From Arcobacteraceae bacterium (lineage in GTDB: Bacteria; Campylobacterota; Campylobacteria; Campylobacterales; Arcobacteraceae), in contig JAOZMC010000002.1 in assembly GCA_029934475.1 (NCBI GenBank), positions 27 through 64,026 of the forward strand: 64,000 nucleotides of DNA, in the 5' to 3' direction. The notes below the pieces were generated by a model that did not search any database, was not told the DNA's origin, and saw only the letters and a list, made by a program, of their open reading frames with translations. Below are positions 27,274 through 48,049 of the stretch, piece after piece. The position numbers were made by a program, and so were the translations under genes. Position 1 is the first letter of the stretch; each line of letters starts with the position of its first letter.

Positions 27274-27420
27274 ATAGTGACAATTTCTCAAATACTCACC
27301 TATATATAAATTTTTTAACGCTACAAATCACTATTTTTGATAATATTTTTCATATATTGGATAAAATATAGATAAATTTTGCTCAAATTGCCAGTTTTTG
27401 TGGTAATTTTATAAAAATTA

Positions 27421-27429
27421 TGATATAAT
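27421..27429 (+). promoter_or_regulatory. Extended -10 element (TGaTATAAT) upstream of the first giant lipoprotein gene
   Basis: TG at 27421-27422 and TATAAT at 27424-27429 sit in a 174-bp AT-rich spacer. RBS AAGGAG at 27436-27441 and ATG at 27448. Confidence 0.4.
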
Positions 27430-27447
27430 ATACAAAAGGAGTAAATA

Positions 27448-30400
27448 ATGAATAATATTTACAAGTTAAAATCAATATCAATAGCGACAATATTTTCGTT
27501 GTTTTTGGTAGGCTGTGAGCTAGGCAATATCAAAACTGCTATATCTATAGAGGGTAGAGTAGCCAAAGGTGCTATAGGTGGAGCTACTGTCACAGCATAT
27601 AAGGCTGGCACGACAGAAGTGATAGGAACTGCAACCACAGATACAAATGGCTACTACAAGCTAGACGGCGATATATTTTATGACGGTGTGATTTATATAG
27701 AATCTGCTGGTGGAACATATACAGATGAGCTCACAAATGCTGCCGGCAAAGATGCCAGTGTGTTTGACCTACAAGCTGTATCAAAAGTGGGTGCTGATGA
27801 TGGATATGTATTAAATATTACACCATTTTCAACTGTGGCATACAGAACCATGCAAAATGATGGAGCAGATATAACTTCTCCAACTACTGTAGGCAAATAC
27901 AACAAGGCAATATCGGATATATTTATAGGCAATGGCTTTGATATCACTAAGACCACACCAAACCTGCACGGCGATACGACTGACAATGACTTAGATAGCG
28001 AAGATGAAGAAAAGTATGGTTTCATGCTAAAAGTATTTACAAAGATGATAAACTCAAACGAAGCAAATGTAAATGGCAAGATAAACGATATAGTCGGTGC
28101 TATCGTGAGTCTTGACGATATGACTATCACAGAGGCTTTGGCAGATGAGATAATAACAACATTTATAGACCCTGTGGTAGCTACAGATATGACAGCTGAA
28201 GAGATATCTGATATGAATGACACTATCAATGATGCTAGAGATACAAAGCTACCAGATATCAGTGGCTCTTTGGCGAAAATATCTGCCGAGTTCAATACCA
28301 CCATAGCTACTTGGTCGCCAGTAGTAGCTCCTACAGGTGGGGTTATAACTAGCTGTGAAATATCACCAGACATCAACACGAGCTATGGCTTGACATTTGA
28401 CAAAACCAATTGTCAAATAAGCGGCAAACCAAACAAAGTAAATACAGAATCGTTTACTATAGTGCCAGCAAACCTCAAAGGCAAGGGAAACTTTTTTGTC
28501 ATATCTTTGGAAGTAAACAAGACAGCACAAGCACCATTTTCGCTAGATGGTAGCACAGTGTTTGAAAAAAACTCTACAGACTACACACAGACGACTGTAG
28601 GCGGTAGCTGTGTAGATGGAAGTTTGAGTTTTGAATCAAACGATACAAATGTAGCAGATATCACACCTGTAAGCGGTATCATAGACTTCAAAAATGTAGG
28701 CACAGTCCGTATCACGGCGACACTTAGCTGTGATGAATATAACGACATATCAGCAACAAAAGATATAACAGTAAATGATGTAGCTCCTGTCATCACTAGT
28801 CCAAACGATATCGTAGGCGAATACAACCAAACCATGACAAACTGGATACCAGACAGTAGCACAGGTGGCACGATATCTAGCTGTGAGATAGCTCCTGCTA
28901 ACTTTGAGGCAACTTATGGACTTGAGTTCAACGAAACAACATGTGAGATAAGTGGCAAACCAACAACTACAGTGCTAAATGCAGGAGGGATAAATATACA
29001 GATAAAAGCTATAAATCCTACAGGAGACAGCACTGTGTCTGTAAATCTAAAGATAGACAGAACAGACCAAAGCCCGGTGGTATCTATAGCACCAGATCAA
29101 GTATGTGTCGTAGACGATACATTTCCACAGACTGCCACAGGTGGAAGCAGTAGTGCTGTGGGATACATATATGGCACAGAGGACCCAAATATAGCCACAG
29201 TAGATGCTAGTGGTATGGTCACATGTGTAGCAAACGGCGATGTAAACATCACTGCTACGAAAGCTATGGATAGCTTTTACAACGCAAGCACAGGTAAATA
29301 CAAGGTATCTGTAGGATTGGTGCCACCAAATATCAACAACCCACAAACCACTACAGGCGTATATGGTGAAGCTGTCAGCTGGGAAGTCAACAACACAGGA
29401 GGTGTGTATGATAGCTGTATAATCACGCCAAACTTAGCACCAGATGACATAACTACAAAATACGGACTGGTATTTGATGTGGGTGACTGTAGTATAGATG
29501 GTTCGCCGACTGCTACAACTACTGGCGATGTGTCATATACTATCAAAGCGGTAACTGCAGACAGAGGAAACAGCACCAAAAATATAAACATAATCATTGA
29601 CAAAGCTTTGCAAAGTCCGTTTGGTTTTGATGATGGCATAACTTTAAATATAGGAGAAGTATCACCAAAAGCACTGGACCACATAGGCAACGGCACAGGG
29701 ACTATATCTTATGTAAGTACAGATGAAAATATGGCAGTAGTAGATGTAAATTCTGGAGCTATTACTTCTGTGTTGGCAGCAGGAACTGTAGAGATAAATG
29801 CTACTAAACAAGCTGACAACAACTATCAAATAGCTCATGCTTCATATATTTTAACTATACAAGCAGCCGATCCAAATATCACGAGTCCTGGCAATATCAT
29901 AACTGAATACAACACAACTATCACTACAAATTGGCTACCAAACAACACAAACGGCGGCCCTATCGAGGAGTGTGAGATATTGCCACTATTTACAGCAAAC
30001 AGCGGTATGGAGTTCAACACAACCACATGTGAGATAAGCGGAACTCCTCTATATACAAAAGAGAGTGGCACACTATATACTATAACTGCCAAAAACAAAA
30101 GCGGTGCAGGAGTTAGCACTACATCGGTTAAACTCACTGTAAACAAAGCAGACCAAGACCCACTTATCGTGCCTTTGGCTACTGTTGATGATACTATGGC
30201 AGATGTAAGCCATCAGCAAATTATTACAGGCGGTAGTGGCACAGGTAATATCACATTTAGTGGAGCAGTGGCAGGTAAATTTACTGTAGATACAAACAGC
30301 GGGTTGGTCACATATATAGATGAGATAGCAGGTGCTGTCATAACTGTATCAAAAGCAGAAGACGACAACTACAACGATATATCAACTACATATCTGTTGA

Positions 30401-31878
30401 ATATAGGCGACTTTAAGCCCGAGATAGGCACTTCTGCTACAGTGGCTATAGGCACATACAATGAGACAAACAACACTTTGTGGGAAGCAAACAACACAGC
30501 AGGCACAGCTACATTGGGTTACGAGACAGATCCTGCCTTGCCAAATGGTTTGTCTATAAACAACATAGGCGTGATAGGCGGAACTCCTACGAGTGCTATG
30601 AGTGCTACTGCCTACACAATCATGGCGAAAAATGCCTCTGGCAATGATACTATAGTAGTAAATATCACTATAAACAAAGCAACACAATCAAACTTTGTGT
30701 TTAACACAGGCAACAGGACAGGAGCAGTAGGCACACAATATACATATTCTGTGATAAACACAGATGTGCCTGCTGGAAATCTTATCTATACATCTTCTGC
30801 TTTGGGAGTAGATGTATCTGCCAATACAGGGTTGGTAGTCATAAGCCCAACGGCAACCTTTGGTAATGTAACCATATCTGCCACAAATAATGGCGACGGA
30901 AACTATAGTTCTACTACTGCTAGCTATATATTAGAAGTTACAGACCAAGCACCAAATATAGCAAATCCTACTACACCAAACTCAATCGTAGGTTCTTATG
31001 GCGACAACATAGGCTTTGACTTCAACAATACAGGTGGAACTATAAGCGGATGCGTGATATCAAGCGGAACTTTGCCAAATGGCTTGGCGGTAGCGGTCGT
31101 AGGCAACACCTGTCGCATACAAGGTATAGTGACCGAAGTCAAAGGCATTGGTGCATATACAATACAAGCTACAAACACAGCTGGTGATACTAGCACTAGA
31201 GGAGTGCAGATCACTATAAACAAAGCAGACCAAGCAGCATTTACAATATATGGCGACCAAACTATACCAGTGACAAATACGGCACATACTCAAACAGCAG
31301 ATGGTGGAAGCACAAACGAGGCGATACTGTATAGCTCTAGCAACACAACTGTAGCCCATGTAGATCAAAACGGCTTGATAGCACCGCATGTAGCTGGAAA
31401 CACTACTATAACTGCTATAAGACCAGGAAATGTCAGCTACAATGATATCAACGATAGCTATCTACTGACAGTCACTGATGCGGTGCTACCTACTGTTGAT
31501 TATGTAGCATCTACACCTACAAATGGTGCCATAGATGCAAACGGAACAGCAGATATCATAATAGTATGGAGCGAAGCAGTCAAGAAAATTGATGGATTTA
31601 ACATAGAGATAAAAAGCAAAGGCAACACAGCCCATGTGAAAGGTTATACTACAAACAACATAGTAGCAAACGGCGATACAAATGTTACTTTGTCGCTAGG
31701 AACGGGACATCTGAGCTATGGCGAGGAGTATTATATAGTCATAGATGCTGGAGCATTTGAAGATATGAGTGGCAACGATGCTGTTGCTCAAGGTGGAGAC
31801 GGCACATGGAATTTCACTGTGCCAACACAGACAGGCGATTGTGCCTATGATTGTGTAGACAATTGTGATAATTATTAA
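27448..31878 (+). CDS. Giant surface/secreted lipoprotein, paralog 1 (1476 aa): N-terminal domain, 6 x (He_PIG/cadherin-like Ig + Big_2-like Ig), SbsA-like Ig domain, Cys tail
   Basis: Lipobox FLVGC. Repeated modules are GG.I.SCEI.P....YGL.F...TC.ISG.P (paired Cys) alternating with .GGS...I.Y.S.D..VA.VD..G.V......G.V.ITATK. The C-terminal 130 aa are colinear with paralog 2. Confidence 0.85.
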   Translation: MNNIYKLKSISIATIFSLFLVGCELGNIKTAISIEGRVAKGAIGGATVTAYKAGTTEVIGTATTDTNGYYKLDGDIFYDGVIYIESAGGTYTDELTNAAGKDASVFDLQAVSKVGADDGYVLNITPFSTVAYRTMQNDGADITSPTTVGKYNKAISDIFIGNGFDITKTTPNLHGDTTDNDLDSEDEEKYGFMLKVFTKMINSNEANVNGKINDIVGAIVSLDDMTITEALADEIITTFIDPVVATDMTAEEISDMNDTINDARDTKLPDISGSLAKISAEFNTTIATWSPVVAPTGGVITSCEISPDINTSYGLTFDKTNCQISGKPNKVNTESFTIVPANLKGKGNFFVISLEVNKTAQAPFSLDGSTVFEKNSTDYTQTTVGGSCVDGSLSFESNDTNVADITPVSGIIDFKNVGTVRITATLSCDEYNDISATKDITVNDVAPVITSPNDIVGEYNQTMTNWIPDSSTGGTISSCEIAPANFEATYGLEFNETTCEISGKPTTTVLNAGGINIQIKAINPTGDSTVSVNLKIDRTDQSPVVSIAPDQVCVVDDTFPQTATGGSSSAVGYIYGTEDPNIATVDASGMVTCVANGDVNITATKAMDSFYNASTGKYKVSVGLVPPNINNPQTTTGVYGEAVSWEVNNTGGVYDSCIITPNLAPDDITTKYGLVFDVGDCSIDGSPTATTTGDVSYTIKAVTADRGNSTKNINIIIDKALQSPFGFDDGITLNIGEVSPKALDHIGNGTGTISYVSTDENMAVVDVNSGAITSVLAAGTVEINATKQADNNYQIAHASYILTIQAADPNITSPGNIITEYNTTITTNWLPNNTNGGPIEECEILPLFTANSGMEFNTTTCEISGTPLYTKESGTLYTITAKNKSGAGVSTTSVKLTVNKADQDPLIVPLATVDDTMADVSHQQIITGGSGTGNITFSGAVAGKFTVDTNSGLVTYIDEIAGAVITVSKAEDDNYNDISTTYLLNIGDFKPEIGTSATVAIGTYNETNNTLWEANNTAGTATLGYETDPALPNGLSINNIGVIGGTPTSAMSATAYTIMAKNASGNDTIVVNITINKATQSNFVFNTGNRTGAVGTQYTYSVINTDVPAGNLIYTSSALGVDVSANTGLVVISPTATFGNVTISATNNGDGNYSSTTASYILEVTDQAPNIANPTTPNSIVGSYGDNIGFDFNNTGGTISGCVISSGTLPNGLAVAVVGNTCRIQGIVTEVKGIGAYTIQATNTAGDTSTRGVQITINKADQAAFTIYGDQTIPVTNTAHTQTADGGSTNEAILYSSSNTTVAHVDQNGLIAPHVAGNTTITAIRPGNVSYNDINDSYLLTVTDAVLPTVDYVASTPTNGAIDANGTADIIIVWSEAVKKIDGFNIEIKSKGNTAHVKGYTTNNIVANGDTNVTLSLGTGHLSYGEEYYIVIDAGAFEDMSGNDAVAQGGDGTWNFTVPTQTGDCAYDCVDNCDNY
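28255..31485 (+). repeat. Array of about 12 alternating Ig-like coding modules (protein-level repeats) in paralog 1
   Basis: Six He_PIG-like and six Big_2-like modules of about 85-95 aa each, identified by recurring motifs in the translation. Confidence 0.7.
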
Positions 31879-31888
31879 GGAGAAAAAG

Positions 31889-34800
31889 ATGAAAAAATAT
31901 ATAAAAATATTATTGGTAATGATACCAATACTGTTGATATCATTTAGTGGATGTGGAGACAAAGGAACCGAAGGTGCCGTAACTACTGGATTGATCATAG
32001 AAGGCAGAGTGGCAAAAGGCTCTATAAGTGGAGCTACCATAGAAGTGTTTGATACAACTACTGGCGACTCTCTAGGGGTAGATGTGACCGATAGCCAAGG
32101 ATATTATAGCATAAAAACTTCGGCAAATACAAAAGGTGTAGTTAGACTTACGGCAAATGGTGGTTCGTTTATAGATGAACAAACAGGCAATCAACTAGAC
32201 GCTTCTGCTTTTGAGCTTGTAGCAGTCCAAGACACTACATATGAAGAAAGTATAGTAAATATAAATATTACTCCATTTACGACTGTATCGTATAAAAAAC
32301 TTATAGCAGACGGTAAAGATATAGGTTCAAAAGATGATGTGACCAAATACAACAAAGCTATAGCGAGCATATTTGTAGGAAACAAAAATATAGAGATCAC
32401 AAAGCTAGAGCCAAATATTGTAAACGATGCAAACGACAATCACCTAGACACAGATGACCAAAAAAATTATGGCACTATACTAGCAGCATTTTCAGGAATG
32501 ATACAAAACACTCCCGTGCTTACAACATCAGAGATAAACAATATTGTTGGGAAAATCAAAAATATAGAATATGCTACTATAGAGCAAGACTTAGCAAGCC
32601 ATATACAAAGCTATATTGCTGACATAAACACTACCAACGAACAGACAGATGAAAGTGTAAATGATATCAACAACTCAATAGAAAAAGCAGTATATTCAGT
32701 AGTGCCAAATATAATCGACTCAGCACCAAACCTAGACGATAATATAGATGAGAACAGCACAAAAATATCTTGGATACCTGTAACAAAAGAGGAAAGTGTC
32801 ACAAGCTGTAAATTGGGAGACGGTGTAAATCTAGCTGAATACAATCTTACATTTGATAGCGAAACATGTGCTATAACAGGAGAACCAAATGCTACGCACA
32901 CAGGAAAAGATATATATATAATTCCTTCAAATCCAGAAGGTGAAGGACTACCTTTTAGCTTAAATTTCAAGATAGATAGGATAGCACAAGCACCGATATC
33001 GTTTGTTCCTAGTGATAAAGAGGAGTTTAATGTGACAGATGGCAACTTTGATTTTGATATAACTGGTGGGACTTGTGATGATCTATCTGCTACAAGATTT
33101 GTATCTAGTGATACAGATGTAGCAAAAGTAAATATCAGCACAGGAATAATAGATATTAACACCACTGGAATATTTACACTCACAGCTACAAAAACTTGCA
33201 GCGAAGGCTATCTAGCAAAAGAGGTATCAAAAACAATAACCGTGCTACAAGTTCTCCCAAATATTGCTACAAGCACAGACATAAATGCTTCTATGAGTCA
33301 AGTGCTTGATTGGAATGTTACAAACACAGGCGGCTCTATAGATAGCTGTGCTATAGATACAGATATAAAAACACTCTACAATCTTGACTTTGACCAAACA
33401 ACTTGTGCTATTACTGGTGTGCCAAATACGACAAATATACCAGTTGGTATAGATGTGTCTATCACGGCTACAAACAGTATAGGCGACAACATTCAAGCTG
33501 TGCATATCCTTATAAATAGCAATCCAAACATAGATAATCCACAAAATACTATAGGTATATACAATACTCCAGTTGTATGGGATGTAAATAATACTGGCTC
33601 AAATGTAGGCATGATAACTAGTTGTGAAATAACACCAAATACGCTAAAAAACAACTACAATCTTGACTTCAATCAAACAAACTGCCAAATCACAGGTGAA
33701 GCAAACAAGACAACTACAGGCGACAACAGCTACACTATCACAGCAAAAAATATATCTGGCAATAGTGCTAAAAATATCAATATAGTTATAGACAGATCGC
33801 CACAAGATCCGATACTATTTGACCCAAATACCAAAAATGAATTTAACTTGACTGATATTGATTTTGACTTTGGTATCACAGGTGGAAACTGTAGCGGCAT
33901 AGAAACTATAACATATAACTCAAACGACACAGCTATAGCAGATGTCAATACGACTACCGGTGTAGTAAATATGCAAGGTGTAGGTGAGTTTAACCTCACT
34001 GCGACAAAAACTTGTAGCGAAAACTATTTGCCTGCAGTTGTGTCTAAGCTTATGACGGTTCACAATGTCGTGCCAGATATAACCAACGACAACAATATCA
34101 CAACTGAATATAATACTACTATAGCTACATGGAGACCATCAAATACAGGTGGAACTATCACCGGTTGTGCTTTGGACCAAGATATCAATAGCATGTATGG
34201 GTTGGATTTTAATGATACTACATGTGCTATATCAGGAGAGCCAAATGCCACCATACAAGCTGGCATCAACATAGGAGTTACAGCTTCAAATGAGATAGGA
34301 GATAGCAACACAATAGTATTACAACTAATTATAAACAAAGCTGTCCAAAATCCAATAGTAGATATGACAAACAACAATGCCAACTGCTACAAAGGAACAT
34401 CACCAATCATACACAAAGATGCTACAGGCGGGAGTAGTTCGTTTGATTATAACTATACTTCAAGCGACACAAATATAGCTACTGTAGATCCTGTCACAGG
34501 AGTAGTGAGTTGCATAGAGTTTGGTGAAGCAAATATCACGGCTACTAGAGCTGAAGATGACAATTGGCTTGAAAGTTCTCACTATTATACTATAGTGGTT
34601 TCAAACAATGCTCCAAATATAGACAATCCGCAAAATACTACAGGAATATATAATGAAGCAGTAGTATGGGATGTAAACAATAGTGGAGCAAATGTAGGAC
34701 CGATAGAAAGCTGTGAAATAACTCCAAACAATCTAAAAGCTACATACAATCTAGACTTCAATCAAACAACATGCCAAATCACTGGCATACCAAGTGCCTC

Positions 34801-37174: not shown

Positions 37175-37213
37175 CTAGTCATATAGATATTGGATAGCAT
37201 AAAATCGAACGAC

Positions 37214-37242: not shown

Positions 37243-37274
37243 AGATAATATAGAGTTCAACTCAAAAGGAAAAT

Positions 37275-39346: not shown

Positions 39347-39923
39347 TATAAAAGCTATTTTATCTGTAATTATAGACAGACTAAGAGGACTAGAGAGCAT
39401 GCATATAGGTGGTGGTGTGAAGTTTCTCTTGTATGGCTTTTTGATACTGTTTTTTATAGTTTTTTTGTCACCCAAACAACAGCTCTATTTTTATCTCGAA
39501 GAAAAACTACAGCCATATAAAATCATAATATATCAAGAAAAGATTGAGCCGTTAAACACAGGTATATGGCTAAAAGATGGTATGGTCTCTTATGACAAGA
39601 TATTTATAGGATTGTTTAGCAATATAGTCATAAATACATATTTTTTCAAGACAAATATAGTCGTAGATGGTTTTCTGATAGACAAGGATTTTGAGATGTT
39701 TATACCATCAAAGATAGACAAGATAGCACTATCTCATAGTATTGTAAATCCGCTAAATGTTATCATAGAAGCGAAAGGAGAGTTTGGTGAGCTTGATGGG
39801 ACTTATGATTTTATCAGCGGTAAGCTAAAGCTGAAACTAAAGCCTAGCGATATCATGAAAACAAAAAAAGCATCACTAAAACTCATGACAAAAACCAAAG
39901 ATGGATACAAATATGAGAAATAG
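39339..39923 (+). CDS. Bitopic protein (GspN-like by size/topology)
   Basis: 194 aa with TM helix FLLYGFLILFFIVFL and a beta-rich periplasmic part ending in a GEFGELDGTYDFISGKLKLKLK-type motif. Confidence 0.4.
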   Translation: MDNIKAILSVIIDRLRGLESMHIGGGVKFLLYGFLILFFIVFLSPKQQLYFYLEEKLQPYKIIIYQEKIEPLNTGIWLKDGMVSYDKIFIGLFSNIVINTYFFKTNIVVDGFLIDKDFEMFIPSKIDKIALSHSIVNPLNVIIEAKGEFGELDGTYDFISGKLKLKLKPSDIMKTKKASLKLMTKTKDGYKYEK

Positions 39924-40818
39924 AGGTATGATAGCAAACGGACTGCTAATAATAGCTTTGATATATCTTTTCATGTCTGTAGTCAAGATATTTTTGCCTA
40001 TAACATCTGTAGAGCTACAAAAAGAAATTGACTATAATTTTGCATTTAACTACTCTTTACAAAATATTTACAAAGATAAAACAAAGAAAAAAGGCAGTCA
40101 AAATAGATCTAGCTTGGATTTTAAGCTTATAGGTATATATAGCGATGGTAAAAACAGTGTGGTGATAGTCAGCAAAGATAAAAGAACTGAAGTGGTAGCA
40201 GTAGGCGAAGAATATAAAGGCTATAAGCTAGTGGATACTACAAACATATTGGCTATATGGACTAGAGACAATACCCACTATGAACTTTCTATAGAAGATA
40301 CAAAAGATAGAAAGATAGAAGCAGCATACAAAATAGAAAATGATGATCCTTTTGGAACAAAAGAGATAAAATACACCGATATACAATACTACAAAAAAAA
40401 TCCACAAAAACTTTGGGATGAGATAAATATAAACAAAACAAAGGCGGGCTACACAGTAACCAAGATAGAGCCAGGCTCAAAGCTATCTACAATAGGTCTA
40501 AAAAAGGGCGATATTATAAAAGTTATAAATGGAACTGAACTGAAAGAAGACAGAGATGCTATAAAATTCTATAAAGATATAAAAAATTTAGAATTTATAA
40601 TCATTTCTGTCTTGCGTGGCGATAAATATATAGATATAGAGTATAATATAAAATCAGAACGACAACTACCAGAAGAAGAAGAGCCAAATGAGCAAATAAT
40701 GCCTGAAAAAGAAGATATTAATATAGAACAGATAGAAATTAAAGAAAAAAACGATACAATAGAAAAAAAGCAAGACAAAAGGTCTAAAAGCAACAATACA
40801 CTAGAGGATAACAGATGA
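39901..40818 (+). CDS. gspC: T2SS protein C-like (TM anchor + HR-like region + PDZ domain)
   Basis: 305 aa with N-terminal TM helix LLIIALIYLFMSVV and PDZ signature LSTIGLKKGDIIKVINGTEL. It lies immediately upstream of the secretin and is coupled to it (ATGA). The true start may be 39913 or 39928. Confidence 0.65.
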   Translation: MDTNMRNRGMIANGLLIIALIYLFMSVVKIFLPITSVELQKEIDYNFAFNYSLQNIYKDKTKKKGSQNRSSLDFKLIGIYSDGKNSVVIVSKDKRTEVVAVGEEYKGYKLVDTTNILAIWTRDNTHYELSIEDTKDRKIEAAYKIENDDPFGTKEIKYTDIQYYKKNPQKLWDEININKTKAGYTVTKIEPGSKLSTIGLKKGDIIKVINGTELKEDRDAIKFYKDIKNLEFIIISVLRGDKYIDIEYNIKSERQLPEEEEPNEQIMPEKEDINIEQIEIKEKNDTIEKKQDKRSKSNNTLEDNR

Positions 40819-43016: not shown

Positions 43017-44240
43017 ATGTTATACAAATATACAGGAGTTGATAAGCAGTTCAAAAAAGTCTCAGCCACGATAGAAGCAAACAACTTGGATGAAGCCAAA
43101 AAAACTCTTAGACAAAGTGGTATAATGTTCAACTCCATAAAGGCTCAGCAACAAAACAGCTTAGAGTTCATGTCCGTTCTTTTTACAAAAGAATTGACAA
43201 AAAAAGAGCTATCTACTCTCAGCAGAGATCTGAGCTTCTATATCAAATCTGGTATAAATATATCAAGTGCTTTGAAGCTAGCAATATCACAATACAGTGA
43301 CTCAAAAAAGATCAAAAATTTTTTAGGTGAGGTTAGCAGATCTATAGATGAGGGCAAGGATTTTGCTACATCGCTTAGTATCCAAAAACAGATAAAACTT
43401 CCTCAATTTTATGTGCAAAGTATCAAAGCATCACAAAATGGAGGCATGCTTGATAATGTATTGATGGAACTATCTACATTTATATCAAATCAAGACAAGA
43501 TACAAAAAAAAATATCAAATGCCCTAGCATACCCTATGTTTATCGTCATAAGTGCATTGCTTATGGTAGTATTTATGCTAAGCTACGTAGTACCAAAAGT
43601 CATAGGTATATTTGAACAAAACAAACAAGAGCTACCGCTCATCACCAAATATGTGCTAGCTTCGAGCGATTTTGTGGGTGATTATTATGTGACAATACTG
43701 GTGCTAATAGTTTCTACTATATTTGCCGTGAAATATCTAAATAAAATTTCACCCTTGTTTCGCTACTCTTATGATGGTATCATCTTGAAGCTTCCACTTT
43801 TTGGTCCTATCATACTTATAAGTGAGTTGTCACGATTTAGCTATATGTGTTCGTTGTTGTTGCGGTCTGGCATGACATTGGTTGAGACAGTCAAGCTATC
43901 ATCTCAACTTTTGGACAATGTAGTCTTGGCCAAGATATTTGACGACAGTTCTACTTTTGTAGTCCAAGGCGGCAAACTCTCCTCCTCTTTGATGAGTAGA
44001 AATATTGATATACTGCCCAAAAGTTTCATCCAGTCTATCGCTCTAGGTGAAGAGACTAGTATGTTGCAAACTGTACTTTCTACACAGGCGGTGCGGTTTG
44101 ACGAAGACAACAGCGACAAGATAACTTTCATGCTATCACTTCTTGAACCTATCATGATGCTAGTTGTTGGCACTATCATCGCCATAATCGTCCTAGCCAT
44201 GATGTTGCCGATATTTTCTATAAATATAGGTGGTATGTAG
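43017..44240 (+). CDS. gspF: T2SS inner-membrane platform protein GspF
   Basis: 407 aa with a duplicated GspF domain, three TM segments and a typical C-terminus (LLEPIMMLVVG...MLPIF). Confidence 0.9.
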   Translation: MLYKYTGVDKQFKKVSATIEANNLDEAKKTLRQSGIMFNSIKAQQQNSLEFMSVLFTKELTKKELSTLSRDLSFYIKSGINISSALKLAISQYSDSKKIKNFLGEVSRSIDEGKDFATSLSIQKQIKLPQFYVQSIKASQNGGMLDNVLMELSTFISNQDKIQKKISNALAYPMFIVISALLMVVFMLSYVVPKVIGIFEQNKQELPLITKYVLASSDFVGDYYVTILVLIVSTIFAVKYLNKISPLFRYSYDGIILKLPLFGPIILISELSRFSYMCSLLLRSGMTLVETVKLSSQLLDNVVLAKIFDDSSTFVVQGGKLSSSLMSRNIDILPKSFIQSIALGEETSMLQTVLSTQAVRFDEDNSDKITFMLSLLEPIMMLVVGTIIAIIVLAMMLPIFSINIGGM

Positions 44241-44629
44241 TGAAAACATCGTTTTTGCTTATAGAGGCTATCATGGCTATAGTTATATTGTCGTTTTCTC
44301 TTGTGGGATTGTTGCAGTTAAATGGCACAACTATGGATATGTTGGCATTTGTATCTAGCAGAAGTTCGCTATATCAAGATGCCTCGCTAGTCAGTCAAAC
44401 TATCACCAAAGACTACAACAAAAAAACAAAATCTGCCTACGATATAGTATCAAAAAAATACAATATAGATAATCTCGATGTCAAACAAGCATTGTCAAAA
44501 GAGAAATACAAGATAAAAGTAGACAGTTATTCACAGCTAGTATTTGCTGATATATTTACGATAGATATCCATAGGATATCACTCTCAAACGAAAAAAATA
44601 AAATCCAAATATATAAATTAACCCCATGA
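44240..44629 (+). CDS. Pseudopilin (minor-type), prepilin-like N-terminus MKTS/FLLIEAIMAIVIL
   Basis: 129 aa with a GTG start overlapping the gspF stop. It has the F-x-L-I-E motif followed by a hydrophobic helix, with Ser rather than Gly at -1. Confidence 0.6.
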   Translation: MKTSFLLIEAIMAIVILSFSLVGLLQLNGTTMDMLAFVSSRSSLYQDASLVSQTITKDYNKKTKSAYDIVSKKYNIDNLDVKQALSKEKYKIKVDSYSQLVFADIFTIDIHRISLSNEKNKIQIYKLTP

Positions 44630-45150
44630 ATACATACAAGACACCAGCATTTACTATCATGGAGCTACTCATCTCTGTCATAATCATAGGTATGATATTT
44701 ACGTTTTCATTTCAAGTGTTTAACTATACCAAAACAAACCAAAACAATATAAACAGATCTATCCAAAAAAACTCGACAGATAGTATGAAAATCAAGCTGA
44801 TGTATATGGATATAGTCAATATGAAGAAAAAGTTTGAGATAAACAACAAGTTTAACCAAGATTTGGATATAATATACCTACAGACAACCAACTCTATGTA
44901 TAAGCGGGATTATAGCTTTGTGGTCTATAAAGTAGTAGACGAAAAGCTATATAGAGTAGAATCAAGCAACAAACTAAGAGACGACAAGTTTGGTATGAAA
45001 AAGGATATAGATATGTTATTTGACGAAGTGGAGATTTTTAAAGTGTACGAAGATACAACAAAACACAACACAACACAAACAAACAAGAACAAACTAGTGT
45101 TTTTGAAAACAAAGACAAACTTAATAAGATTTGAGGTAGCAGGTATATGA
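44626..45150 (+). CDS. Pseudopilin (minor-type), prepilin-like N-terminus ...TPA/FTIMELLISVIIIG
   Basis: 174 aa with the FT(I/L)xEL methylation motif and Ala at -1, as in Campylobacter Cts pseudopilins. Confidence 0.65.
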   Translation: MNTYKTPAFTIMELLISVIIIGMIFTFSFQVFNYTKTNQNNINRSIQKNSTDSMKIKLMYMDIVNMKKKFEINNKFNQDLDIIYLQTTNSMYKRDYSFVVYKVVDEKLYRVESSNKLRDDKFGMKKDIDMLFDEVEIFKVYEDTTKHNTTQTNKNKLVFLKTKTNLIRFEVAGI

Positions 45151-46661
45151 TAAATCTATCACAACTGAACAATATGGACTTCGAACCTGTATGGATAGAT
45201 GACATTGATATGGCGATAGCTATAAAATATTTTGCTCTTTTTAGTAAAAAAGACGGCGAGACTATCATCGTGCTGACACCTTTGCATATAAAAGCAGCTT
45301 TGGAATATTTGTCAAAAGTTGATGTAGCTTATGAGATATATCTCACAGATGAGATTAGCTTTGAAAGACTTCTAAACAAATTTTTGGAAATCCGCACAGA
45401 AAAATCTATGGCAAAAGAGGAAAATACCGAGATGTCTATAGACACTGACGAAGAGGAGCTGGAGCTAAAAGAGTTTTTGCAGACAAACCAAGACCTGCTA
45501 AACAGCGAAGATGCTGCGCCTGTCATAAAGCTGGTGAACTCTATATTTTATCAAGCTATCAAAAAAGATGCTAGTGATATACATATAGAAGTGCACGAAA
45601 AAAAGGGCGAGATACGGTTTCGTATCGATGGGGCATTGAACAAATATATGGATCTAGACAAAAAGATAACTCAACTAGCCATAAGTCGTATCAAGGTTAT
45701 ATCTAGCCTAGACATATCAGAAAAAAGAGTGCCACAAGATGGTAGAACACAAGTGACTATTGCTAGCAAAAAACTAGATATAAGGGTCTCTATATTGCCT
45801 ACATATTATGGTGAGAGAGTGGTGATGCGGATACTTATGGAAAGTAGTGATATACCATCTATGGCGGAACTTGGATTTAAAAAAGACTTGATGGACAAGG
45901 TCTATCCGCTTTTGGAACACTCGCACGGTATGATACTAGTAACAGGTCCTACAGGTAGTGGAAAGTCCACGACATTGCACTCGTTTTTACAGCAAGTAAC
46001 TTCGCCAAACTTAAATATCATCACAGTAGAAGACCCGGTGGAATACAATGCAGAAAATATCAACCAAGTCCAGACAAATGCAAAAGTTGATCTCACATTT
46101 GCCTCGGCTCTGCGGTCGATACTTCGTCAAGATCCCGATGTAGTGATGATAGGTGAGATGAGAGACAAAGAGACAGCACACATAGGAGTCCAAGCCGCTC
46201 TTACTGGGCATCTTGTATTTTCTACTTTGCACACAAACACATCTACAGGAGCTATCACTAGGCTTGTAGATATGGGGGTAGAAGAGTTTTTGATATCCAG
46301 TTCGCTACTAGGAGTGTTGAGCCAAAGACTAGTTAGAAAGCTATGTGCACATTGTAAATCTATAGATCTTGATGGTGGCTTTTATAAAACAAAGTTAAAT
46401 ATAGACAAAAAAATAGAAACACACAAGGCTGTAGGATGTAACCAATGCCACTTTACAGGCTATAGTGGCAGAGTGGCTATAGGGGAGCTTTTTGTAGTAG
46501 ATGAAGATGTCAAAAAATTTATAAAAAAAGACCAAGAGGAGAGCGAACTGAGAAACTTTATGAGAAAAAGAGGTATGGTGACTATCCAAGATAGATTGGT
46601 AGACCTCATAATCGAAGGCACTACATCGTTTACAGAAGCACTGAGGATAGGGATACACTAG
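45147..46661 (+). CDS. gspE: T2SS/T4P assembly ATPase GspE family
   Basis: 504 aa with an N-terminal T2SSE_N-like domain, Walker A GPTGSGKSTT, Asp and His boxes, and the tetracysteine C-x2-C...C-x2-C typical of GspE. Confidence 0.9.
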   Translation: MINLSQLNNMDFEPVWIDDIDMAIAIKYFALFSKKDGETIIVLTPLHIKAALEYLSKVDVAYEIYLTDEISFERLLNKFLEIRTEKSMAKEENTEMSIDTDEEELELKEFLQTNQDLLNSEDAAPVIKLVNSIFYQAIKKDASDIHIEVHEKKGEIRFRIDGALNKYMDLDKKITQLAISRIKVISSLDISEKRVPQDGRTQVTIASKKLDIRVSILPTYYGERVVMRILMESSDIPSMAELGFKKDLMDKVYPLLEHSHGMILVTGPTGSGKSTTLHSFLQQVTSPNLNIITVEDPVEYNAENINQVQTNAKVDLTFASALRSILRQDPDVVMIGEMRDKETAHIGVQAALTGHLVFSTLHTNTSTGAITRLVDMGVEEFLISSSLLGVLSQRLVRKLCAHCKSIDLDGGFYKTKLNIDKKIETHKAVGCNQCHFTGYSGRVAIGELFVVDEDVKKFIKKDQEESELRNFMRKRGMVTIQDRLVDLIIEGTTSFTEALRIGIH

Positions 46662-48049
46662 TGAAAACAACACAGATAATAGAAACGATATTTAGAGAGT
46701 ATGACATACGAGGGATATATGAGACAGAGCTAGACGAAAAGACAGTCAAGCTCATAGGCTATTTTCTAGGAGTTTATATTTGCAAGCAAGCAAAAGATGG
46801 TGCAGTAGCAGTAGGATATGATGCCAGAGAGCATGGAGTAGTGCTGGGTGGATACTTGACAAGTGGTCTAAATATGGCTGGCTGTCGTGTGTTAGATATG
46901 GGTATGGTAGCTACTGGGGTCAATTATTTTGCTGGGTATTATAGTTTTGATGATATCAAGCCAGATGCCACCGTGATGATCACAGGTAGCCACAATCCAC
47001 CACAATACAATGGCTTTAAGATCACAGTAGCCAACAAACCGTTTTTTGGAGATGACATATATACTCTAGGCGACACGATAGTCAAAAATCAGCACAAAAT
47101 CATAGCAGACAACACCACAACAACTACTATAGATGTCAAGACAAGATATATAAAATATATGACAAAAGAGTTTCAAAGTCTGAGAGATATGCCACAGAAA
47201 TTTGTGTTTGATTGTGGGCATGGTGTAGCAAACACAGTGCTAGAGCAGATATTGCAAAATCTAAATATAAACTACAAGATACTCTATGGCAAACCAGACG
47301 GAACATTTCCAGCTCACCACCCAGACCCTAGTGAAGAAAAAAACCTCGCAGATATAAAGCAGGAGCTAAAAGGCGACAGTCTGTATGGGTTTGCTTATGA
47401 TGGCGATGCTGACAGAGTGGCATTTTTGTCAAAAAAGCAAAACATCAAGCCAGATATGCTAGCTATCGTGCTAGCAAAACAGATCAAAAATCCCACAGTC
47501 ATAGGCGAAGTCAAATGCTCCTTAGTCATGTATGACACCATAGCAAAAAACGGCGGCAAGACTATCATGGCAAAGACAGGACATAGCAACTTAAAAGTAG
47601 CTATCAAAAAGCACAAGGCCGACTTTGCTGTAGAAGTGTCGGGACATCTGTTTTTCGCTGATAGGTTTTATGGCTTTGACGATGCCATATATGCTACATT
47701 TCGTATTATGGAGCTTATAAACTGCGGTATAGATATAGATGAGCAGATAGATAGTTTCGATGATATATACAACACAGACGAGATAAAGATACACACCACA
47801 GAGGATAAAAAGTTTAAAATCATGAACAACATAGGCGATATACTAGCAAATGACAAAGATCTGAAGCCAGAGATAAAAAGTATCATAGATATAGACGGCT
47901 ACCGTATCAACTTCGCAGATGGCTGGGCTCTTGTGCGAGCTAGCAACACCACGCCAGTTATAGTCACTAGATATGAAAGCACAAAAAAAGAAAATCTGCC
48001 CATATATCAAGAGTTTGTAGAAAATCTAATAAAAAGAGCAACTTTTTGA
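46661..48049 (+). CDS. Phosphomannomutase/phosphoglucomutase
   Basis: 462 aa with active-site loop TGSHNPPQYNGFK, metal-binding FAYDGDADR and sugar-binding GEVKCS. GTG start overlaps the gspE stop by 1 nt. Confidence 0.85.
   Translation: MKTTQIIETIFREYDIRGIYETELDEKTVKLIGYFLGVYICKQAKDGAVAVGYDAREHGVVLGGYLTSGLNMAGCRVLDMGMVATGVNYFAGYYSFDDIKPDATVMITGSHNPPQYNGFKITVANKPFFGDDIYTLGDTIVKNQHKIIADNTTTTTIDVKTRYIKYMTKEFQSLRDMPQKFVFDCGHGVANTVLEQILQNLNINYKILYGKPDGTFPAHHPDPSEEKNLADIKQELKGDSLYGFAYDGDADRVAFLSKKQNIKPDMLAIVLAKQIKNPTVIGEVKCSLVMYDTIAKNGGKTIMAKTGHSNLKVAIKKHKADFAVEVSGHLFFADRFYGFDDAIYATFRIMELINCGIDIDEQIDSFDDIYNTDEIKIHTTEDKKFKIMNNIGDILANDKDLKPEIKSIIDIDGYRINFADGWALVRASNTTPVIVTRYESTKKENLPIYQEFVENLIKRATF

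What the first reader, a model, noticed from the sequence alone, without database searches (positions are those of the whole stretch)
27274..48049. Two giant lipoprotein genes physically coupled to a self-contained, atypically organised T2SS-like operon
Seen in sequence: a 174-bp AT-rich promoter region is followed by two tandem paralogous lipoprotein genes (1476 and about 1761 aa). After a single hairpin come 11 genes whose starts and stops overlap or abut (37275-48049). These are four bitopic proteins with no recognisable motif, GspC (PDZ), GspD, GspF, two pseudopilins, GspE and a phosphomannomutase. The gene order (platform-like genes, C, D, F, pilins, E) is not the canonical gspC-O order. 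Established knowledge: T2SSs export lipoproteins to the cell surface (Klebsiella PulA, E. coli SslE, Shewanella MtrC/OmcA). In Campylobacterota the characterised T2SS-like genes are the C. jejuni Cts DNA-uptake genes (CtsD/E/F/P/X/R). To my knowledge, a complete T2SS with adjacent dedicated cargo has not been described in this phylum. Inference: this locus is a dedicated secretion or surface-display system for the two giant, probably glycosylated, Ig-repeat lipoproteins (adhesin or S-layer-like).
Basis: partly seen in the sequence, partly recalled or inferred. Interest (0 to 1): 0.85.

Follow-up and report, generated by a model that had tools for sequence, protein, structure and literature searches.

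The report
Type II secretion genes beside giant lipoproteins
An ordinary type II protein-secretion gene cluster, conserved across this bacterial phylum, sits next to two rare giant lipoproteins that carry dozens of sugar-attachment motifs; they are plausible but unproven passengers of the machine, which was not built for them.

Summary
Two tandem paralogous lipoprotein genes (1476 and 1761 aa) are followed by a hairpin and then 11 overlapping or abutting genes, including gspC, D, F and E and two pseudopilins.

- **The T2SS cluster is not special to this locus.** Its core (four unannotated genes, then gspC, gspD, gspE) recurs in about 80 fetched loci, out of 480 matching Campylobacterota species genomes.
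- **It is not self-contained.** gspG, gspH and a prepilin peptidase are missing from the whole 64-kb window, although G and H flank most orthologous operons.
- **The giants are very rare.** About 5.8 billion proteins held only three relatives. They are absent upstream of the operon in relatives whose GspD is 86% and 63% identical.
- **The phosphomannomutase is a lineage-specific neighbour,** not part of the conserved operon.

Three results still favour a cargo relationship.
- The giants share an N-terminal lipoprotein module of about 270 aa. Other giant lipoproteins carrying it lie beside orthologous operons in about three further lineages.
- The module's predicted fold best matches the non-heme domain of the exported Geobacter lipoprotein PgcA.
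- The giants carry 20 and 41 PglB-type sequons, against about 3 and 4 expected.

Verdict: a conserved general T2SS with lineage-specific candidate glycolipoprotein cargo. Moderate interest.

The parts
27274..27447 (+). 174-bp AT-rich intergenic region upstream of gA (presumed promoter region)
   Evidence: Sequence read. It contains weak sigma-70-like matches only. No experimental support.
27448..31878 (+). gA: 1476-aa giant lipoprotein. Lipobox LVGC; N-terminal module of about 270 aa; He_PIG/Big_2 Ig-like repeats; C-terminal ...C-x3-C-x3-CDNY.
   Evidence: (20 PglB-type sequons against 2.8 expected).
31889..37174 (+). gB: 1761-aa paralogue of gA (46% identity), lipobox FSGC, same N-terminal module and same Cys tail. 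Its start lies 10 nt after the gA stop, behind AAGGAG.
   Evidence: 41 sequons against 4.2 expected.
37214..37242 (+). Conserved 12-bp-stem hairpin between gB and the T2SS genes. No U-tract; possibly a partial terminator or a 3'-stabilising element.
   Evidence: z = -4.1; conserved in L002 with one compensatory pair change.
37275..38150 (+). o1: GspK-like minor pseudopilin (291 aa, N-terminal hydrophobic segment)
   Evidence: hhalign of a 31-member family profile against E. coli GspK/EtpK gives probability 81.6%, E 1.1e-5, over 244 columns. Orthologues start with a GspK-like ...KG[IFV]ALLITL.... No Pfam, NCBIfam or PDB sequence hit.
38134..38970 (+). o2: candidate GspL-like protein (278 aa; about 180 aa cytoplasmic, one transmembrane segment at 181-199, about 80 aa periplasmic)
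   Evidence: Assigned by position, size and topology only. hhalign against GspL is weak (6.5%). Conserved in almost all related loci. The single-sequence AF2 model failed (pLDDT 29).
38960..39346 (+). o3: candidate GspM-like protein (128 aa, transmembrane segment at 9-27)
   Evidence: Assigned by position and topology. A positional orthologue is present in 56 loci. No homology detected.
39339..39923 (+). o4: conserved bitopic protein (194 aa, transmembrane segment at 25-43), in the position of GspN or a second GspM
   Evidence: No homology detected.
39901..40818 (+). gspC-like gene (305 aa; N-terminal transmembrane segment, PDZ domain)
   Evidence: NF041515 GspC_delta 7.4e-17; TIGR01713 8.7e-12 over residues 58-246. 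Both are below their cutoffs. PDZ_2 3.1e-4.
40815..43016 (+). gspD secretin (733 aa): N0, three Secretin_N, secretin domain, then a Lys-rich C-terminal extension of about 150 aa with a weak SPOR-like end
   Evidence: TIGR02517 356.8 bits against a cutoff of 351.35; SPOR E 0.01, below cutoff.
43017..44240 (+). gspF inner-membrane platform protein (407 aa)
   Evidence: Two T2SSF matches, 7.6e-43. Best NCBIfam match is TIGR02120 GspF at 297 bits, below its cutoff of 424.
44240..44629 (+). p1: small pseudopilin (129 aa), GspI-like by size and position. Atypical N-terminus SFLLIE.
   Evidence: hhalign against GspI/EtpI gives 86.6%, but over only the 36-residue N-terminal helix.
44626..45150 (+). 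p2: GspJ-like minor pseudopilin (174 aa; AFTIMELL prepilin motif)
   Evidence: hhalign against GspJ/EtpJ gives 86.5%, E 4.6e-6, over 134 columns. Weak TIGR01711 and N_methyl matches. It is the only prepilin motif in the window.
45147..46661 (+). gspE ATPase (504 aa)
   Evidence: T2SSE 2.3e-134. TIGR02533 GspE scores 556.7 bits, more than PilB at 482.5, but below its cutoff of 630.
46661..48049 (+). Phosphomannomutase/phosphoglucomutase. Its start overlaps the gspE stop, but it is not part of the conserved operon.
   Evidence: Present after gspE only in the window and L002; absent in L003 and L082.

Best explanation
**The machine.** The 37275-46661 cluster encodes most of a genuine Gsp-type type II secretion system that is ancestral and widespread in environmental Campylobacterota.
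- Reading by homology, or where noted by position only, the genes are: gspK-like o1; o2, o3 and o4 in the places of gspL, M and N (position and topology only); gspC; gspD; gspF; a gspI-like gene; a gspJ-like gene; and gspE.
- In this small Arcobacteraceae clade gspE has moved behind the pseudopilin genes.
- gspG, gspH and the prepilin peptidase must be encoded elsewhere in the genome.
- This is a general secretion machine. It did not evolve for the two giants.

**The giants.** gA and gB are a lineage-specific tandem pair placed at the upstream edge of the operon. In relatives that edge carries gspG/H or unrelated genes.

**Proposed pathway (inferred).**
1. Each giant is exported by Sec and lipidated at its lipobox cysteine.
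2. It folds in the periplasm, where its Ig domains contain paired cysteines.
3. A PglB-type oligosaccharyltransferase N-glycosylates it heavily at D/E-x-N-x-S/T sequons.
4. The T2SS carries it across the outer membrane. It stays lipid-anchored on the surface as a long glycosylated Ig-repeat fibre, acting as an adhesin or coat.

Its N-terminal module (a beta-sandwich plus a helical bundle) sits next to the lipid anchor.

**Shown versus inferred.** Shown here: gene identities, conservation, rarity of the giants, sequon enrichment, the shared module and its recurrent adjacency to T2SS operons. Inferred: glycosylation, surface location and, above all, T2SS dependence. I put T2SS dependence at roughly 45-50%.
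For: **T2SS identity.**
- GspD passes the TIGR02517 cutoff. GspE and GspF have their best matches to the Gsp models. A GspC-like PDZ protein is present.
- o1 matches GspK (81.6%, 244 columns) and p2 matches GspJ (86.5%, 134 columns).
- o2, o3 and o4 have the topologies expected of GspL, M and N.

**Conservation.**
- 480 genome loci encode a GspD relative.
- The o1-o2-o3-o4-C-D-E core is present in nearly all of the 80 fetched loci.
- gspG and gspH flank most of them.

**Giants are lineage-specific.**
- Only P0122, P0123 and P0124 are relatives among 5.8 billion clusters.
- Neither the tail pattern nor the module was found in JGI metagenome contigs.
- The giants are absent from the flanks held for L003 and L004.

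**Cargo link.**
- They are on the same strand, 100 bp upstream of the operon, in the window and in L002.
- In L082 a 1353-aa cadherin/Big_13 lipoprotein with a homologous N-terminus lies one gene after gspE (tblastn 1e-6; HMM 9e-29).
- In L027 a 1581-aa lipoprotein with the module follows gspF directly (1.8e-10 and 3.5e-24).
- In L076 a 1376-aa lipoprotein lies upstream of the operon (5.6e-6).

**The module.**
- It has 926 representative homologues, nearly all at the N-terminus of their protein; 101 of the best 149 have a lipobox-like motif in their first 45 residues.
- The AF2 model has pLDDT 84. Its best PDB match is the PgcA non-heme domain (9i0d, E 3.2e-4).
- PgcA is a lipid-anchored protein that crosses the outer membrane (PMC11520253).

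**Glycosylation.**
- Sequon counts are 20 against 2.8 expected and 41 against 4.2 expected.
- The same enrichment appears in giants beside the T2SS in L082, L027, L076 and L007, and in the small L050 lipoprotein.
- It is absent from He_PIG homologues with no Campylobacterota label (P0125-P0131) and from 100 of 109 module representatives.

**Precedent.** Cargo genes next to T2SS operons are known. chiA lies beside gsp, and tagA/stcE beside etp, in the E. coli records I fetched. PulA and SslE I cite from established knowledge.
Against: - Adjacency is not conserved. L004 (GspD 86% identical) has no giant in the 6.4 kb upstream. L003 has housekeeping genes on both sides. About 70 other loci have no N-module giant within 10 kb.
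- A conserved hairpin separates gB from o1, so the giants probably form their own transcription unit.
- The N-module is common in other phyla, and the three cases I looked up there are not next to T2SS genes.
- The paper reports that PgcA was not recognised by the Shewanella T2SS; its export route is not stated in the passages I read.
- The residue after the lipid cysteine is E in gA and G in gB, not the D that marks Lol avoidance in PulA-type lipoproteins.
- No pglB or other pgl gene lies in the window.
- The sequons sit at conserved positions of repeated domains, so the shuffle z-scores overstate their independence.
- o2, o3 and o4 have no detectable homology to GspL, M or N.
Confidence: 0.6

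Rival explanations
1. The adjacency is coincidental. The T2SS is a general machine with other substrates such as proteases or redox proteins. The giants reach the surface, or stay in the periplasm or on the inner face of the outer membrane, by another route: Lol followed by an unidentified surface-lipoprotein pathway. The upstream edge of the operon is simply a place where accessory genes accumulate.
For: - Close relatives L004 and L003 lack giants at this position, and their flanks are all different.
- A hairpin separates the two units.
- N-module lipoproteins in other phyla are not T2SS-linked.
- C. jejuni is known to display lipoproteins on its surface, and to my knowledge it has no Gsp-type T2SS (established knowledge).
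- The paper reports that PgcA was not recognised by a heterologous T2SS.
Against: - N-module giant lipoproteins lie directly beside orthologous T2SS operons in about four independent lineages, at different positions: upstream in the window and L002, after gspE in L082, after gspF in L027, and upstream in L076.
- By my rough estimate, chance would give well under one immediate adjacency among about 80 loci. The genome-wide density of such genes could not be measured, so this estimate is soft.
Confidence: 0.3
2. The cluster is a type IV pilus or competence (Cts-like) machine used for DNA uptake or adhesion, not for protein secretion. The giants are unrelated to it.
For: - In C. jejuni, T2SS/T4P-like Cts proteins mediate transformation (PMC10046745, PMC8308473).
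- GspE and GspF score below the Gsp equivalog cutoffs and also match the PilB and PilC models.
- No major pseudopilin gene is present in the window.
Against: - GspD passes the GspD equivalog cutoff. It scores 356.8 bits against 200 for PilQ and 105 for HofQ.
- A GspC-like PDZ protein and GspK- and GspJ-like proteins are present.
- No PilM/N/O/P, PilT or CtsP/CtsX-like gene is in the operon.
- CtsD is a 472-aa protein, and A. butzleri has a separate 478-aa homologue of it.
- Orthologous operons carry a T2SSG-family (PF08334) gene.
Confidence: 0.07
3. The system is dedicated: the operon exists to export gA and gB, and the linked phosphomannomutase feeds their glycan.
For: - Tight physical linkage in the window and in L002.
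- The PMM start overlaps the gspE stop.
- Strong sequon enrichment in both giants.
Against: - The operon is conserved in at least 480 species genomes, while the giants occur in two or three.
- PMM follows gspE only in the window and L002.
- The cluster lacks gspG, gspH and gspO, so it is not self-contained.
Confidence: 0.03

Closest known systems
Klebsiella Pul T2SS with the lipoprotein pullulanase PulA; E. coli T2SS-beta with the lipoprotein SslE/YghJ; pO157 Etp T2SS with StcE/TagA; E. coli K-12 Gsp with ChiA
   Same: A Gsp-type secretin, ATPase, platform and pseudopilin machine encoded next to a gene for a large secreted or surface-anchored (lipo)protein. I saw the adjacency directly for chiA-gsp and tagA-etp. 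PulA and SslE are from established knowledge.
   Different: - Gene order here is K, L?, M?, N?, C, D, F, I, J, E.
- gspG, gspH and gspO are unlinked.
- The proteins in the L, M and N positions are unrecognisably divergent.
- The secretin has a SPOR-like tail.
- The candidate cargo consists of non-enzymatic Ig-repeat giants with dozens of PglB-type sequons.
- The residue after the lipid cysteine is E or G, not D.
- Dependence on the T2SS is untested.
Geobacter sulfurreducens PgcA (extracellular lipid-anchored triheme cytochrome; non-heme N-terminal domain, PDB 9i0d)
   Same: Sec signal, then lipobox, then an N-terminal cofactor-free domain of about 230-270 aa, then variable 'payload' domains. 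The AF2 model of the gA module has 9i0d as its best and only PDB match at E <= 0.001 (E 3.2e-4, 161 columns). PgcA crosses the outer membrane, and the paper reports that a mutation in its lipid-attachment motif traps it in the periplasm (PMC11520253).
   Different: - The TM-scores are modest (0.33 and 0.43).
- A sequence profile did not retrieve 9i0d.
- PgcA carries heme domains, not Ig repeats.
- Its export route is not stated in the passages I read.
Campylobacter jejuni Cts DNA-uptake system (CtsD/E/F/P/X/R/G)
   Same: The same phylum and the same type IV filament superfamily (secretin, ATPase, platform, pseudopilin).
   Different: - CtsD is a 472-aa PilQ-like protein, against a 733-aa N0-N3 GspD here.
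- The Cts locus has CtsP and CtsX and no GspC or GspK.
- A. butzleri has a separate 478-aa CtsD homologue (PMC8308473).
- The two therefore look like distinct systems.
- I could not align Cts sequences directly.
Campylobacter PglB N-glycoproteins
   Same: The extended sequon D/E-x-N-x-S/T in Sec-exported periplasmic or lipoproteins. Functional PglB enzymes are also known from Sulfurovum and Nitratiruptor (cited in PMC6025236).
   Different: To my knowledge, known substrates carry only a few sites, against 20 and 41 here, and up to 82 in a neighbour of another T2SS locus. No pgl genes lie in the window and no glycan data exist.

Membership tests
Type II secretion system (Gsp type) | Outer-membrane secretin GspD with N0, N1-N3 and secretin domains | tested here: met
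   TIGR02517 scores 356.8 bits against a cutoff of 351.35. Pfam finds N0, three Secretin_N and the secretin domain.
Type II secretion system (Gsp type) | GspE ATPase and GspF platform protein | tested here: inconclusive
   The Pfam families T2SSE (2.3e-134) and T2SSF (7.6e-43) are clearly met. The best NCBIfam models are GspE (556.7 bits, cutoff 630) and GspF (297 bits, cutoff 424), both below their equivalog cutoffs.
Type II secretion system (Gsp type) | GspC (T2SS-specific; HR domain plus PDZ) encoded beside gspD | tested here: inconclusive
   NF041515 7.4e-17 and TIGR01713 8.7e-12 (residues 58-246), both below their cutoffs. The protein has an N-terminal transmembrane segment and lies immediately before gspD.
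Type II secretion system (Gsp type) | Minor pseudopilins GspI, J and K (tip complex) | tested here: met
   hhalign gives o1 against GspK 81.6% over 244 columns, p2 against GspJ 86.5% over 134 columns, and p1 against GspI 86.6% over the N-terminal helix only. The probabilities are moderate.
Type II secretion system (Gsp type) | Major pseudopilin GspG (and GspH) and prepilin peptidase GspO | tested here: not met
   None in the 64-kb window. gspG and gspH are adjacent to most orthologous operons, so they are presumably elsewhere in this genome.
Type II secretion system (Gsp type) | Assembly platform proteins GspL and GspM | tested here: inconclusive
   o2 and o3 have the right position, size and topology. 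No homology was detected, and the AF2 model of o2 failed.
Type II secretion system (Gsp type) | Secretes folded periplasmic proteins across the outer membrane | not testable with these tools
   Needs mutants and a secretome.
C. jejuni Cts competence system | Short PilQ-like CtsD with ctsP and ctsX between the secretin and ATPase genes; no GspC or GspK | tested here: not met
   The genes between gspD and gspE are gspF and two pseudopilin genes. No P-loop protein of about 200 aa is present, while GspC- and GspK-like genes are. CtsD length and the separate A. butzleri homologue come from PMC8308473. Cts sequences were not aligned directly.
Bacterial lipoproteins | Signal peptide ending in a lipobox [LVI][ASTVI][GAS]C | tested here: met
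   gA has ...FLVGC at residue 23. gB has ...SFSGC at residue 22.
PglB-type N-glycoproteins | Extended sequon D/E-x-N-x-S/T in an exported protein | tested here: met
   20 and 41 sequons against 2.8 +/- 1.6 and 4.2 +/- 2.0 in shuffles. 53-61% of all N-x-S/T have D or E at position -2. He_PIG homologues P0125-P0131, which carry no Campylobacterota label, have 0-2.
PglB-type N-glycoproteins | pglB and a pgl locus in the genome; glycan on the protein | not testable with these tools
   No STT3/PglB gene in the window. The rest of the genome was not available.
T2SS-dependent surface lipoproteins (PulA/SslE type) | Lol-avoidance residue (Asp at +2) and T2SS-dependent surface exposure | tested here: not met
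   The +2 residue is E in gA and G in gB. The Asp rule is enterobacterial and may not apply here. T2SS dependence is untestable with these tools.
C-terminal sorting tags (GlyGly-CTERM, PEP-CTERM and similar) | Signature motif, then a transmembrane helix, then a basic tail at the C-terminus | tested here: not met
   The tail ...GDCAYDCVDNCDNY has no hydrophobic helix, and neither giant matches any NCBIfam model meaningfully. In P0124 the same Cys motif is internal and is followed by a PEBP domain.

The most novel reading that the evidence does not exclude
In environmental Campylobacterota the conserved T2SS may be a surface-display route for giant, hyper-N-glycosylated lipoproteins. The lipid anchor plus the conserved PgcA-like N-terminal module would act as the recognition or handling element, so that very different repeat bodies (He_PIG/Big_2, cadherin/Big_13, Big_9) can be exported. 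This would be the first described coupling of PglB N-glycosylation to T2SS export. It would also assign a function to an uncharacterised module of about 270 aa that has about 900 representative homologues.
Probability: 0.2. Interest if true: 0.75.

Novelty: new variant of a known kind. Interest (0 to 1): 0.45.

Why it matters
**The machine has never been studied in this phylum.** T2SS genes in Campylobacterota are only ever mentioned as automatic annotations, often described as 'missing subunits' (PMC4674564). No substrate and no function are known.

**What this analysis adds.**
- The cluster is a conserved, essentially complete Gsp system. Its K, I and J subunits can be recognised by profile comparison, and its L, M and N positions are filled by conserved, highly diverged proteins.
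- It names concrete candidate substrates.

**What would follow if the giants are T2SS cargo.**
- A folded protein carrying dozens of PglB N-glycans would be shown to pass a secretin.
- A widespread lipoprotein N-terminal module would gain a role.

**What remains even if they are not.** Proteins with 20-80 bacterial N-glycosylation sequons are unusual. They could be useful for glycoengineering and for understanding the cell surfaces of vent and sediment Campylobacterota.

Tried and rejected
- **Sequence profiles of o1, o2 and o4 against the PDB, and Pfam on all 31 o1 family members.** Nothing meaningful came back.
- **hhalign of o2, o3 and o4 against E. coli GspL, GspM and EtpN.** 6.5%, 0.7% and 0.1%, so no assignment.
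- **AF2 of o2.** The single-sequence model has pLDDT 29 and is unusable, so no fold search was run on it.
- **Search for gspG in the window.** A motif scan, tblastn with the L082 GspG, and reading all six frames of 26700-27450 found no gene or remnant.
- **Two metagenome-contig scans.** One for the N-module and one for the D-C-[VI]-D-N-C-D-N-Y-stop DNA pattern. Both returned no relatives.
- **Context of P0124, the third family member.** It is not on record and no accession was returned.
- **N-module profile against PDB sequences.** PgcA was not retrieved; the profile was contaminated by Ig repeats.
- **The small (about 340-460 aa) lipoproteins after the pseudopilin genes in Sulfurimonadaceae loci.** They look like the N-module by eye, but hhalign gives only 5.6%. 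I do not count them as evidence.
- **Tail as a C-terminal sorting tag.** Rejected: it has no transmembrane helix, and the motif is internal in P0124.
- **PMM as part of the system.** Rejected: it is not conserved after gspE.
- **Horizontal transfer of the giants judged from GC content.** gA is at 0.41 and the T2SS genes at 0.30-0.36. The Thr/Gly/Ala-rich composition of the giants explains this equally well, so the result is not informative.

Full report
**1.

- gA is 27448-31878 (1476 aa, lipobox LVGC).
- gB most likely starts at ATG 31889, 10 nt after the gA stop and behind an AAGGAG. That gives 1761 aa with lipobox FSGC.
- The two are 46% identical over 1201 residues, and 37% over their N-terminal parts.
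- Each contains five He_PIG and three Big_2 matches.
- Both end in C-x3-C-x3-CDNY. No other ORF of more than 80 codons in the window ends in this CDNY tail.
- A 174-bp AT-rich spacer precedes gA.
- A 12-bp-stem hairpin lies between gB and the next gene (z = -4.1 against shuffles). It is conserved in the closest relative with one compensatory change. It has no U-tract, so it is a possible attenuator or 3' stabiliser and not a textbook terminator.
- Eleven genes from 37275 to 48049 overlap by 1-23 nt or abut.

**2. What the eleven genes are**

*Clear family matches*
- GspD has N0, three Secretin_N and the secretin domain. TIGR02517 scores 356.8 bits against a cutoff of 351.35.
- GspF has two T2SSF domains. 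Its best model is TIGR02120.
- GspE matches T2SSE at 2.3e-134. Its best model is TIGR02533, ahead of PilB.

*Weaker matches*
- The PDZ protein before gspD matches GspC models (NF041515 7.4e-17; TIGR01713 8.7e-12 over residues 58-246), below their cutoffs.
- The last gene is a four-domain phosphomannomutase/phosphoglucomutase.

*The four 'bitopic' proteins, o1-o4*
- None has a Pfam, NCBIfam or PDB sequence match, even with family profiles.
- I built family alignments from related loci and compared them with E. coli Gsp and Etp proteins fetched from annotated records.
- o1 aligns with GspK/EtpK over 244 columns (81.6%, E 1.1e-5). Its orthologues carry a GspK-like N-terminus...KG[IFV]ALLITL.
- The 174-aa pseudopilin p2 aligns with GspJ over 134 columns (86.5%).
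- The 129-aa pseudopilin p1 matches GspI only over its N-terminal helix.
- o2 (about 180 aa cytoplasmic, one transmembrane segment, about 80 aa periplasmic), o3 (N-terminal transmembrane segment plus about 100 aa) and o4 have the positions and topologies of GspL, M and N. No homology was detectable, and the single-sequence AF2 model of o2 failed.

The cluster therefore reads K, L?, M?, N?, C, D, F, I, J, E.

**3. It is not self-contained**

- Only p2 has a canonical prepilin motif in the whole window.
- tblastn with a relative's GspG, and six-frame reading of the region upstream of gA, found no gspG.
- In nearly every related locus a GspG-like gene of about 135 aa and a GspH-like gene of about 170 aa lie beside the operon. 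In L082 the former is a PF08334 T2SSG protein.
- The window also has no prepilin peptidase.

These essential parts must be encoded elsewhere in the genome.

**4. The operon is a feature of the whole phylum**

- A GspD search returned many relatives at about 40% identity. Where a source names them, the names are Campylobacterota: Arcobacter, Sulfurospirillum arcachonense and Nitratiruptor.
- A scan of one genome per species found 480 loci encoding a relative. The best 80 are almost all labelled Campylobacterota: Arcobacteraceae, Sulfurovum, Sulfurimonas, Sulfurospirillum, Nitratiruptor, Nitratifractor, Sulfuricurvum and Halarcobacter.
- The window's closest relatives are Arcobacteraceae MAGs, with GspD 88% identical in L002 and 86% in L004.
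- BLAST of the window proteins against all ORFs of these loci shows the o1-o2-(o3)-o4-C-D-E core almost everywhere.
- gspD is followed directly by gspE in 72 of 79 loci. It is followed by gspF only in L002 and L003 among those 79; L082 and the window itself share that order.

The 'non-canonical order' is thus partly the phylum's norm (K-L-M-N ahead of C-D-E) and partly a local rearrangement.

The phosphomannomutase follows gspE only in the window and L002. It is a neighbour, not a component.

Published mentions of a T2SS in this phylum are annotation-level only, and one paper says that subunits appear to be missing. The diverged K, L, M and N genes explain that impression.

The C. jejuni Cts system looks like a different machine. 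CtsD is a 472-aa PilQ-like protein, and A. butzleri has a separate 478-aa homologue of it.

**5. The giants are rare and the adjacency is not conserved**

- Searching gA against about 5.8 billion protein clusters found only three true relatives. Two are the L002 orthologues. The third is P0124, at 33% identity.
- In P0124 the Cys motif (GPCDAPCVDNC) is internal and is followed by a PEBP domain. The tail is therefore a domain-end element and not a C-terminal sorting tag. It also lacks any transmembrane helix, and NCBIfam finds nothing meaningful in the giants.
- Neither the tail's DNA pattern nor the N-terminal module was found in JGI metagenome contigs.
- Among the T2SS loci, CDNY-tailed ORFs occur only in L002.
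- L004 has a porin-like gene, a methyltransferase and a channel upstream of the operon.
- L003 has a penicillin-binding protein and glycolytic genes upstream, and an unrelated gene that I read as xseA-like after gspE.

The operon cannot have evolved as a dedicated exporter for these two proteins.

**6. Evidence that still points to a cargo relationship**

*A shared N-terminal module.* The first 270 residues or so of gA and gB form a distinct unit.
- Its AF2 model is confident (pLDDT 84, pTM 0.81). It shows a beta-sandwich (residues 33-114) followed by a helical bundle.
- An exhaustive profile search found 926 representative proteins at E <= 1e-3. Nearly all carry the module at their very N-terminus and range from 200 to 2500 aa. 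Of the best 149, 101 have a lipobox-like motif in their first 45 residues.
- No Pfam family covers it beyond sub-threshold CarboxypepD_reg.
- Its best, and only, PDB match at E <= 0.001 is the non-heme domain of Geobacter PgcA (9i0d, E 3.2e-4, 161 columns, TM-scores 0.33 and 0.43). PgcA is a lipid-anchored protein that is transported across the outer membrane, and a mutation in its lipid-attachment motif is reported to trap it in the periplasm.

*The module recurs beside orthologous T2SS operons.* It appears on otherwise unrelated giants, at different positions.

| Locus | Protein | Position | Support |
|---|---|---|---|
| L082 (GspD 56% identical, same gene order as the window) | 1353-aa cadherin/Big_13 lipoprotein, followed by a second cadherin protein | one gene after gspE | tblastn 1e-6; HMM 9e-29 |
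| L027 (Sulfurospirillum MAG) | 1581-aa Big_9/cadherin lipoprotein | directly after gspF | 1.8e-10 and 3.5e-24 |
| L076 | 1376-aa lipoprotein | upstream, before gspG-H-F | 5.6e-6 |

- Together with the window and L002, that makes about four independent lineages.
- By my rough estimate, chance would give well under one immediate adjacency in about 80 loci. I could not measure the genome-wide density of such genes, so this estimate is soft.
- Small lipoproteins after the pseudopilin genes in Sulfurimonadaceae loci resemble the module by eye but not statistically. I do not count them.
- Against generality: three module-only lipoproteins from contigs of unnamed organisms, taken from a hit list whose named members are Acidobacteriota, Syntrophus and Nitrospirae, are not next to T2SS genes.

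*Glycosylation sequons.*
- gA has 20 and gB 41 extended bacterial sequons (D/E-x-N-x-S/T), against 2.8 +/- 1.6 and 4.2 +/- 2.0 in shuffles. 53-61% of all their N-x-S/T sites have D or E at position -2.
- The same enrichment appears in several proteins beside the T2SS:

| Protein beside the T2SS | Sequons observed | Expected |
|---|---|---|
| L082 giant | 22 | 4.6 |
| L027 giant | 36 | 3.1 |
| L076 giant | 30 | 2.8 |
| L007 giant | 82 | 7.6 |
| L050 small lipoprotein | 11 | 0.6 |

- Two other giants beside T2SS operons, in L016 and L058, show no enrichment.
- It also appears in only the nine closest of 109 module representatives.
- It is absent from the He_PIG homologues P0125-P0131, which carry no Campylobacterota label (0-2 sites), and from the other window proteins.
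- Repeats inflate the z-scores. The restriction to one lineage still argues for selection by a PglB-type enzyme, which is known to function in Sulfurovum and Nitratiruptor.
- No pgl gene is in the window. Its flanks are housekeeping genes: metH, ligA, parAB and dnaE upstream, and an amino-acid ABC transporter, acetyl-CoA synthetase and RNase P RNA downstream.

**7. Most likely mechanism**

The T2SS is a conserved general secretion machine. gA and gB are lineage-specific accessory genes placed at its upstream edge, which in relatives carries gspG/H or other genes.

I infer the following pathway.
1. Sec export and lipidation.
2. Periplasmic folding, consistent with paired cysteines within the repeats.
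3. Dense PglB N-glycosylation.
4. Passage through the T2SS, followed by retention on the surface by the lipid anchor as a long glycosylated Ig fibre.

| Step | My estimate |
|---|---|
| The cluster is a genuine T2SS | about 0.9 |
| The giants are exported N-glycolipoproteins | about 0.75 |
| They depend on this T2SS | about 0.45-0.5 |
| The system is 'dedicated' to them | below 0.1 |

The main rival is coincidental adjacency with export by another route.

**8. Comparison and novelty**

- A T2SS operon with an adjacent large (lipo)protein substrate is a known arrangement. Examples are PulA-pul and SslE-gsp-beta, and also chiA-gsp and stcE-etp, which I saw.
- What differs here:
  - the phylum, where the system is uncharacterised;
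  - the diverged K, L, M and N block;
  - the local gene order;
  - the weak SPOR-like tail on GspD;
  - the nature of the candidate cargo.
- I rate it a new variant of a known kind, of moderate interest. It does not overturn anything. It does supply testable substrates for an unstudied secretion system and a striking set of hyper-sequon proteins.

Noticed in passing
window 42570-43016 (C-terminus of GspD): GspD carries a Lys-rich extension of about 150 aa that ends in a weak SPOR-like (peptidoglycan-binding) match: PF05036 E 0.01, 16.6 bits, below the cutoff of 21. Precomputed weak or faint SPOR hits also exist in relatives P0002 and P0005. Most other Campylobacterota GspDs are about 600-660 aa and lack it. 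A peptidoglycan-binding tail on a secretin could stand in for GspA/B-type helpers.
   Followed up: partly
window 31830-31878 and 37126-37174; protein P0124: The C-x3-C-x3-C motif (G-[DP]-C-x3-C-[VI]-D-N-C) adds three cysteines to otherwise paired ones. In P0124 it is internal and is followed by a PEBP domain. Its role (metal site, intermolecular disulfide or linker) is unexplained.
   Followed up: partly
L007:14456-21976, L018:9866-17245: In Campylobacterales MAGs a signal-peptide protein of about 2500 aa, rich in SdrD_B and DUF11 repeats, lies just downstream of the T2SS operon. In L007 it carries 82 D/E-x-N-x-S/T sequons against 7.6 expected, the highest count seen.
   Followed up: partly
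L087:4885-11245: On an unnamed JGI metagenome contig, a 414-aa N-module lipoprotein directly follows a 1687-aa multicopper oxidase. This recalls the Geobacter outer-surface multicopper protein OmpB, which is reported to depend on a T2SS (from memory).
   Followed up: no
L039, L045, L050, L051, L055, L061 (first gene after the second pseudopilin gene): Sulfurimonadaceae-type loci encode a lipoprotein of 330-460 aa with a Ser/Thr-rich tail as the last gene of the T2SS cluster. Its N-terminal domain looks like the N-module by eye (VSDAYV-GATV ... GGANDLNGNG ... NINPFTT), but hhalign gives only 5.6%.
   Followed up: partly
L016:15169-21222: In Sulfurospirillum arcachonense DSM 9755, a cultured strain, a 2017-aa RHS-repeat protein with a signal peptide lies downstream of gspF. 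It has no sequon enrichment. This strain could serve as an experimental model for the Campylobacterota T2SS.
   Followed up: no
window 52868-53232: Bacterial RNase P RNA class A (240 bits), an ordinary housekeeping gene.
   Followed up: yes
window 14757-16871, 23859-25913, 7308-8726: Three sizeable ORFs (704, 684 and 472 aa) in the housekeeping flank have no Pfam match.
   Followed up: no
window 26705-26910: A small ORF encodes an N-terminal hydrophobic segment followed by CECHKC...C..EC, a Cys-rich small membrane protein, just upstream of the giant genes.
   Followed up: no
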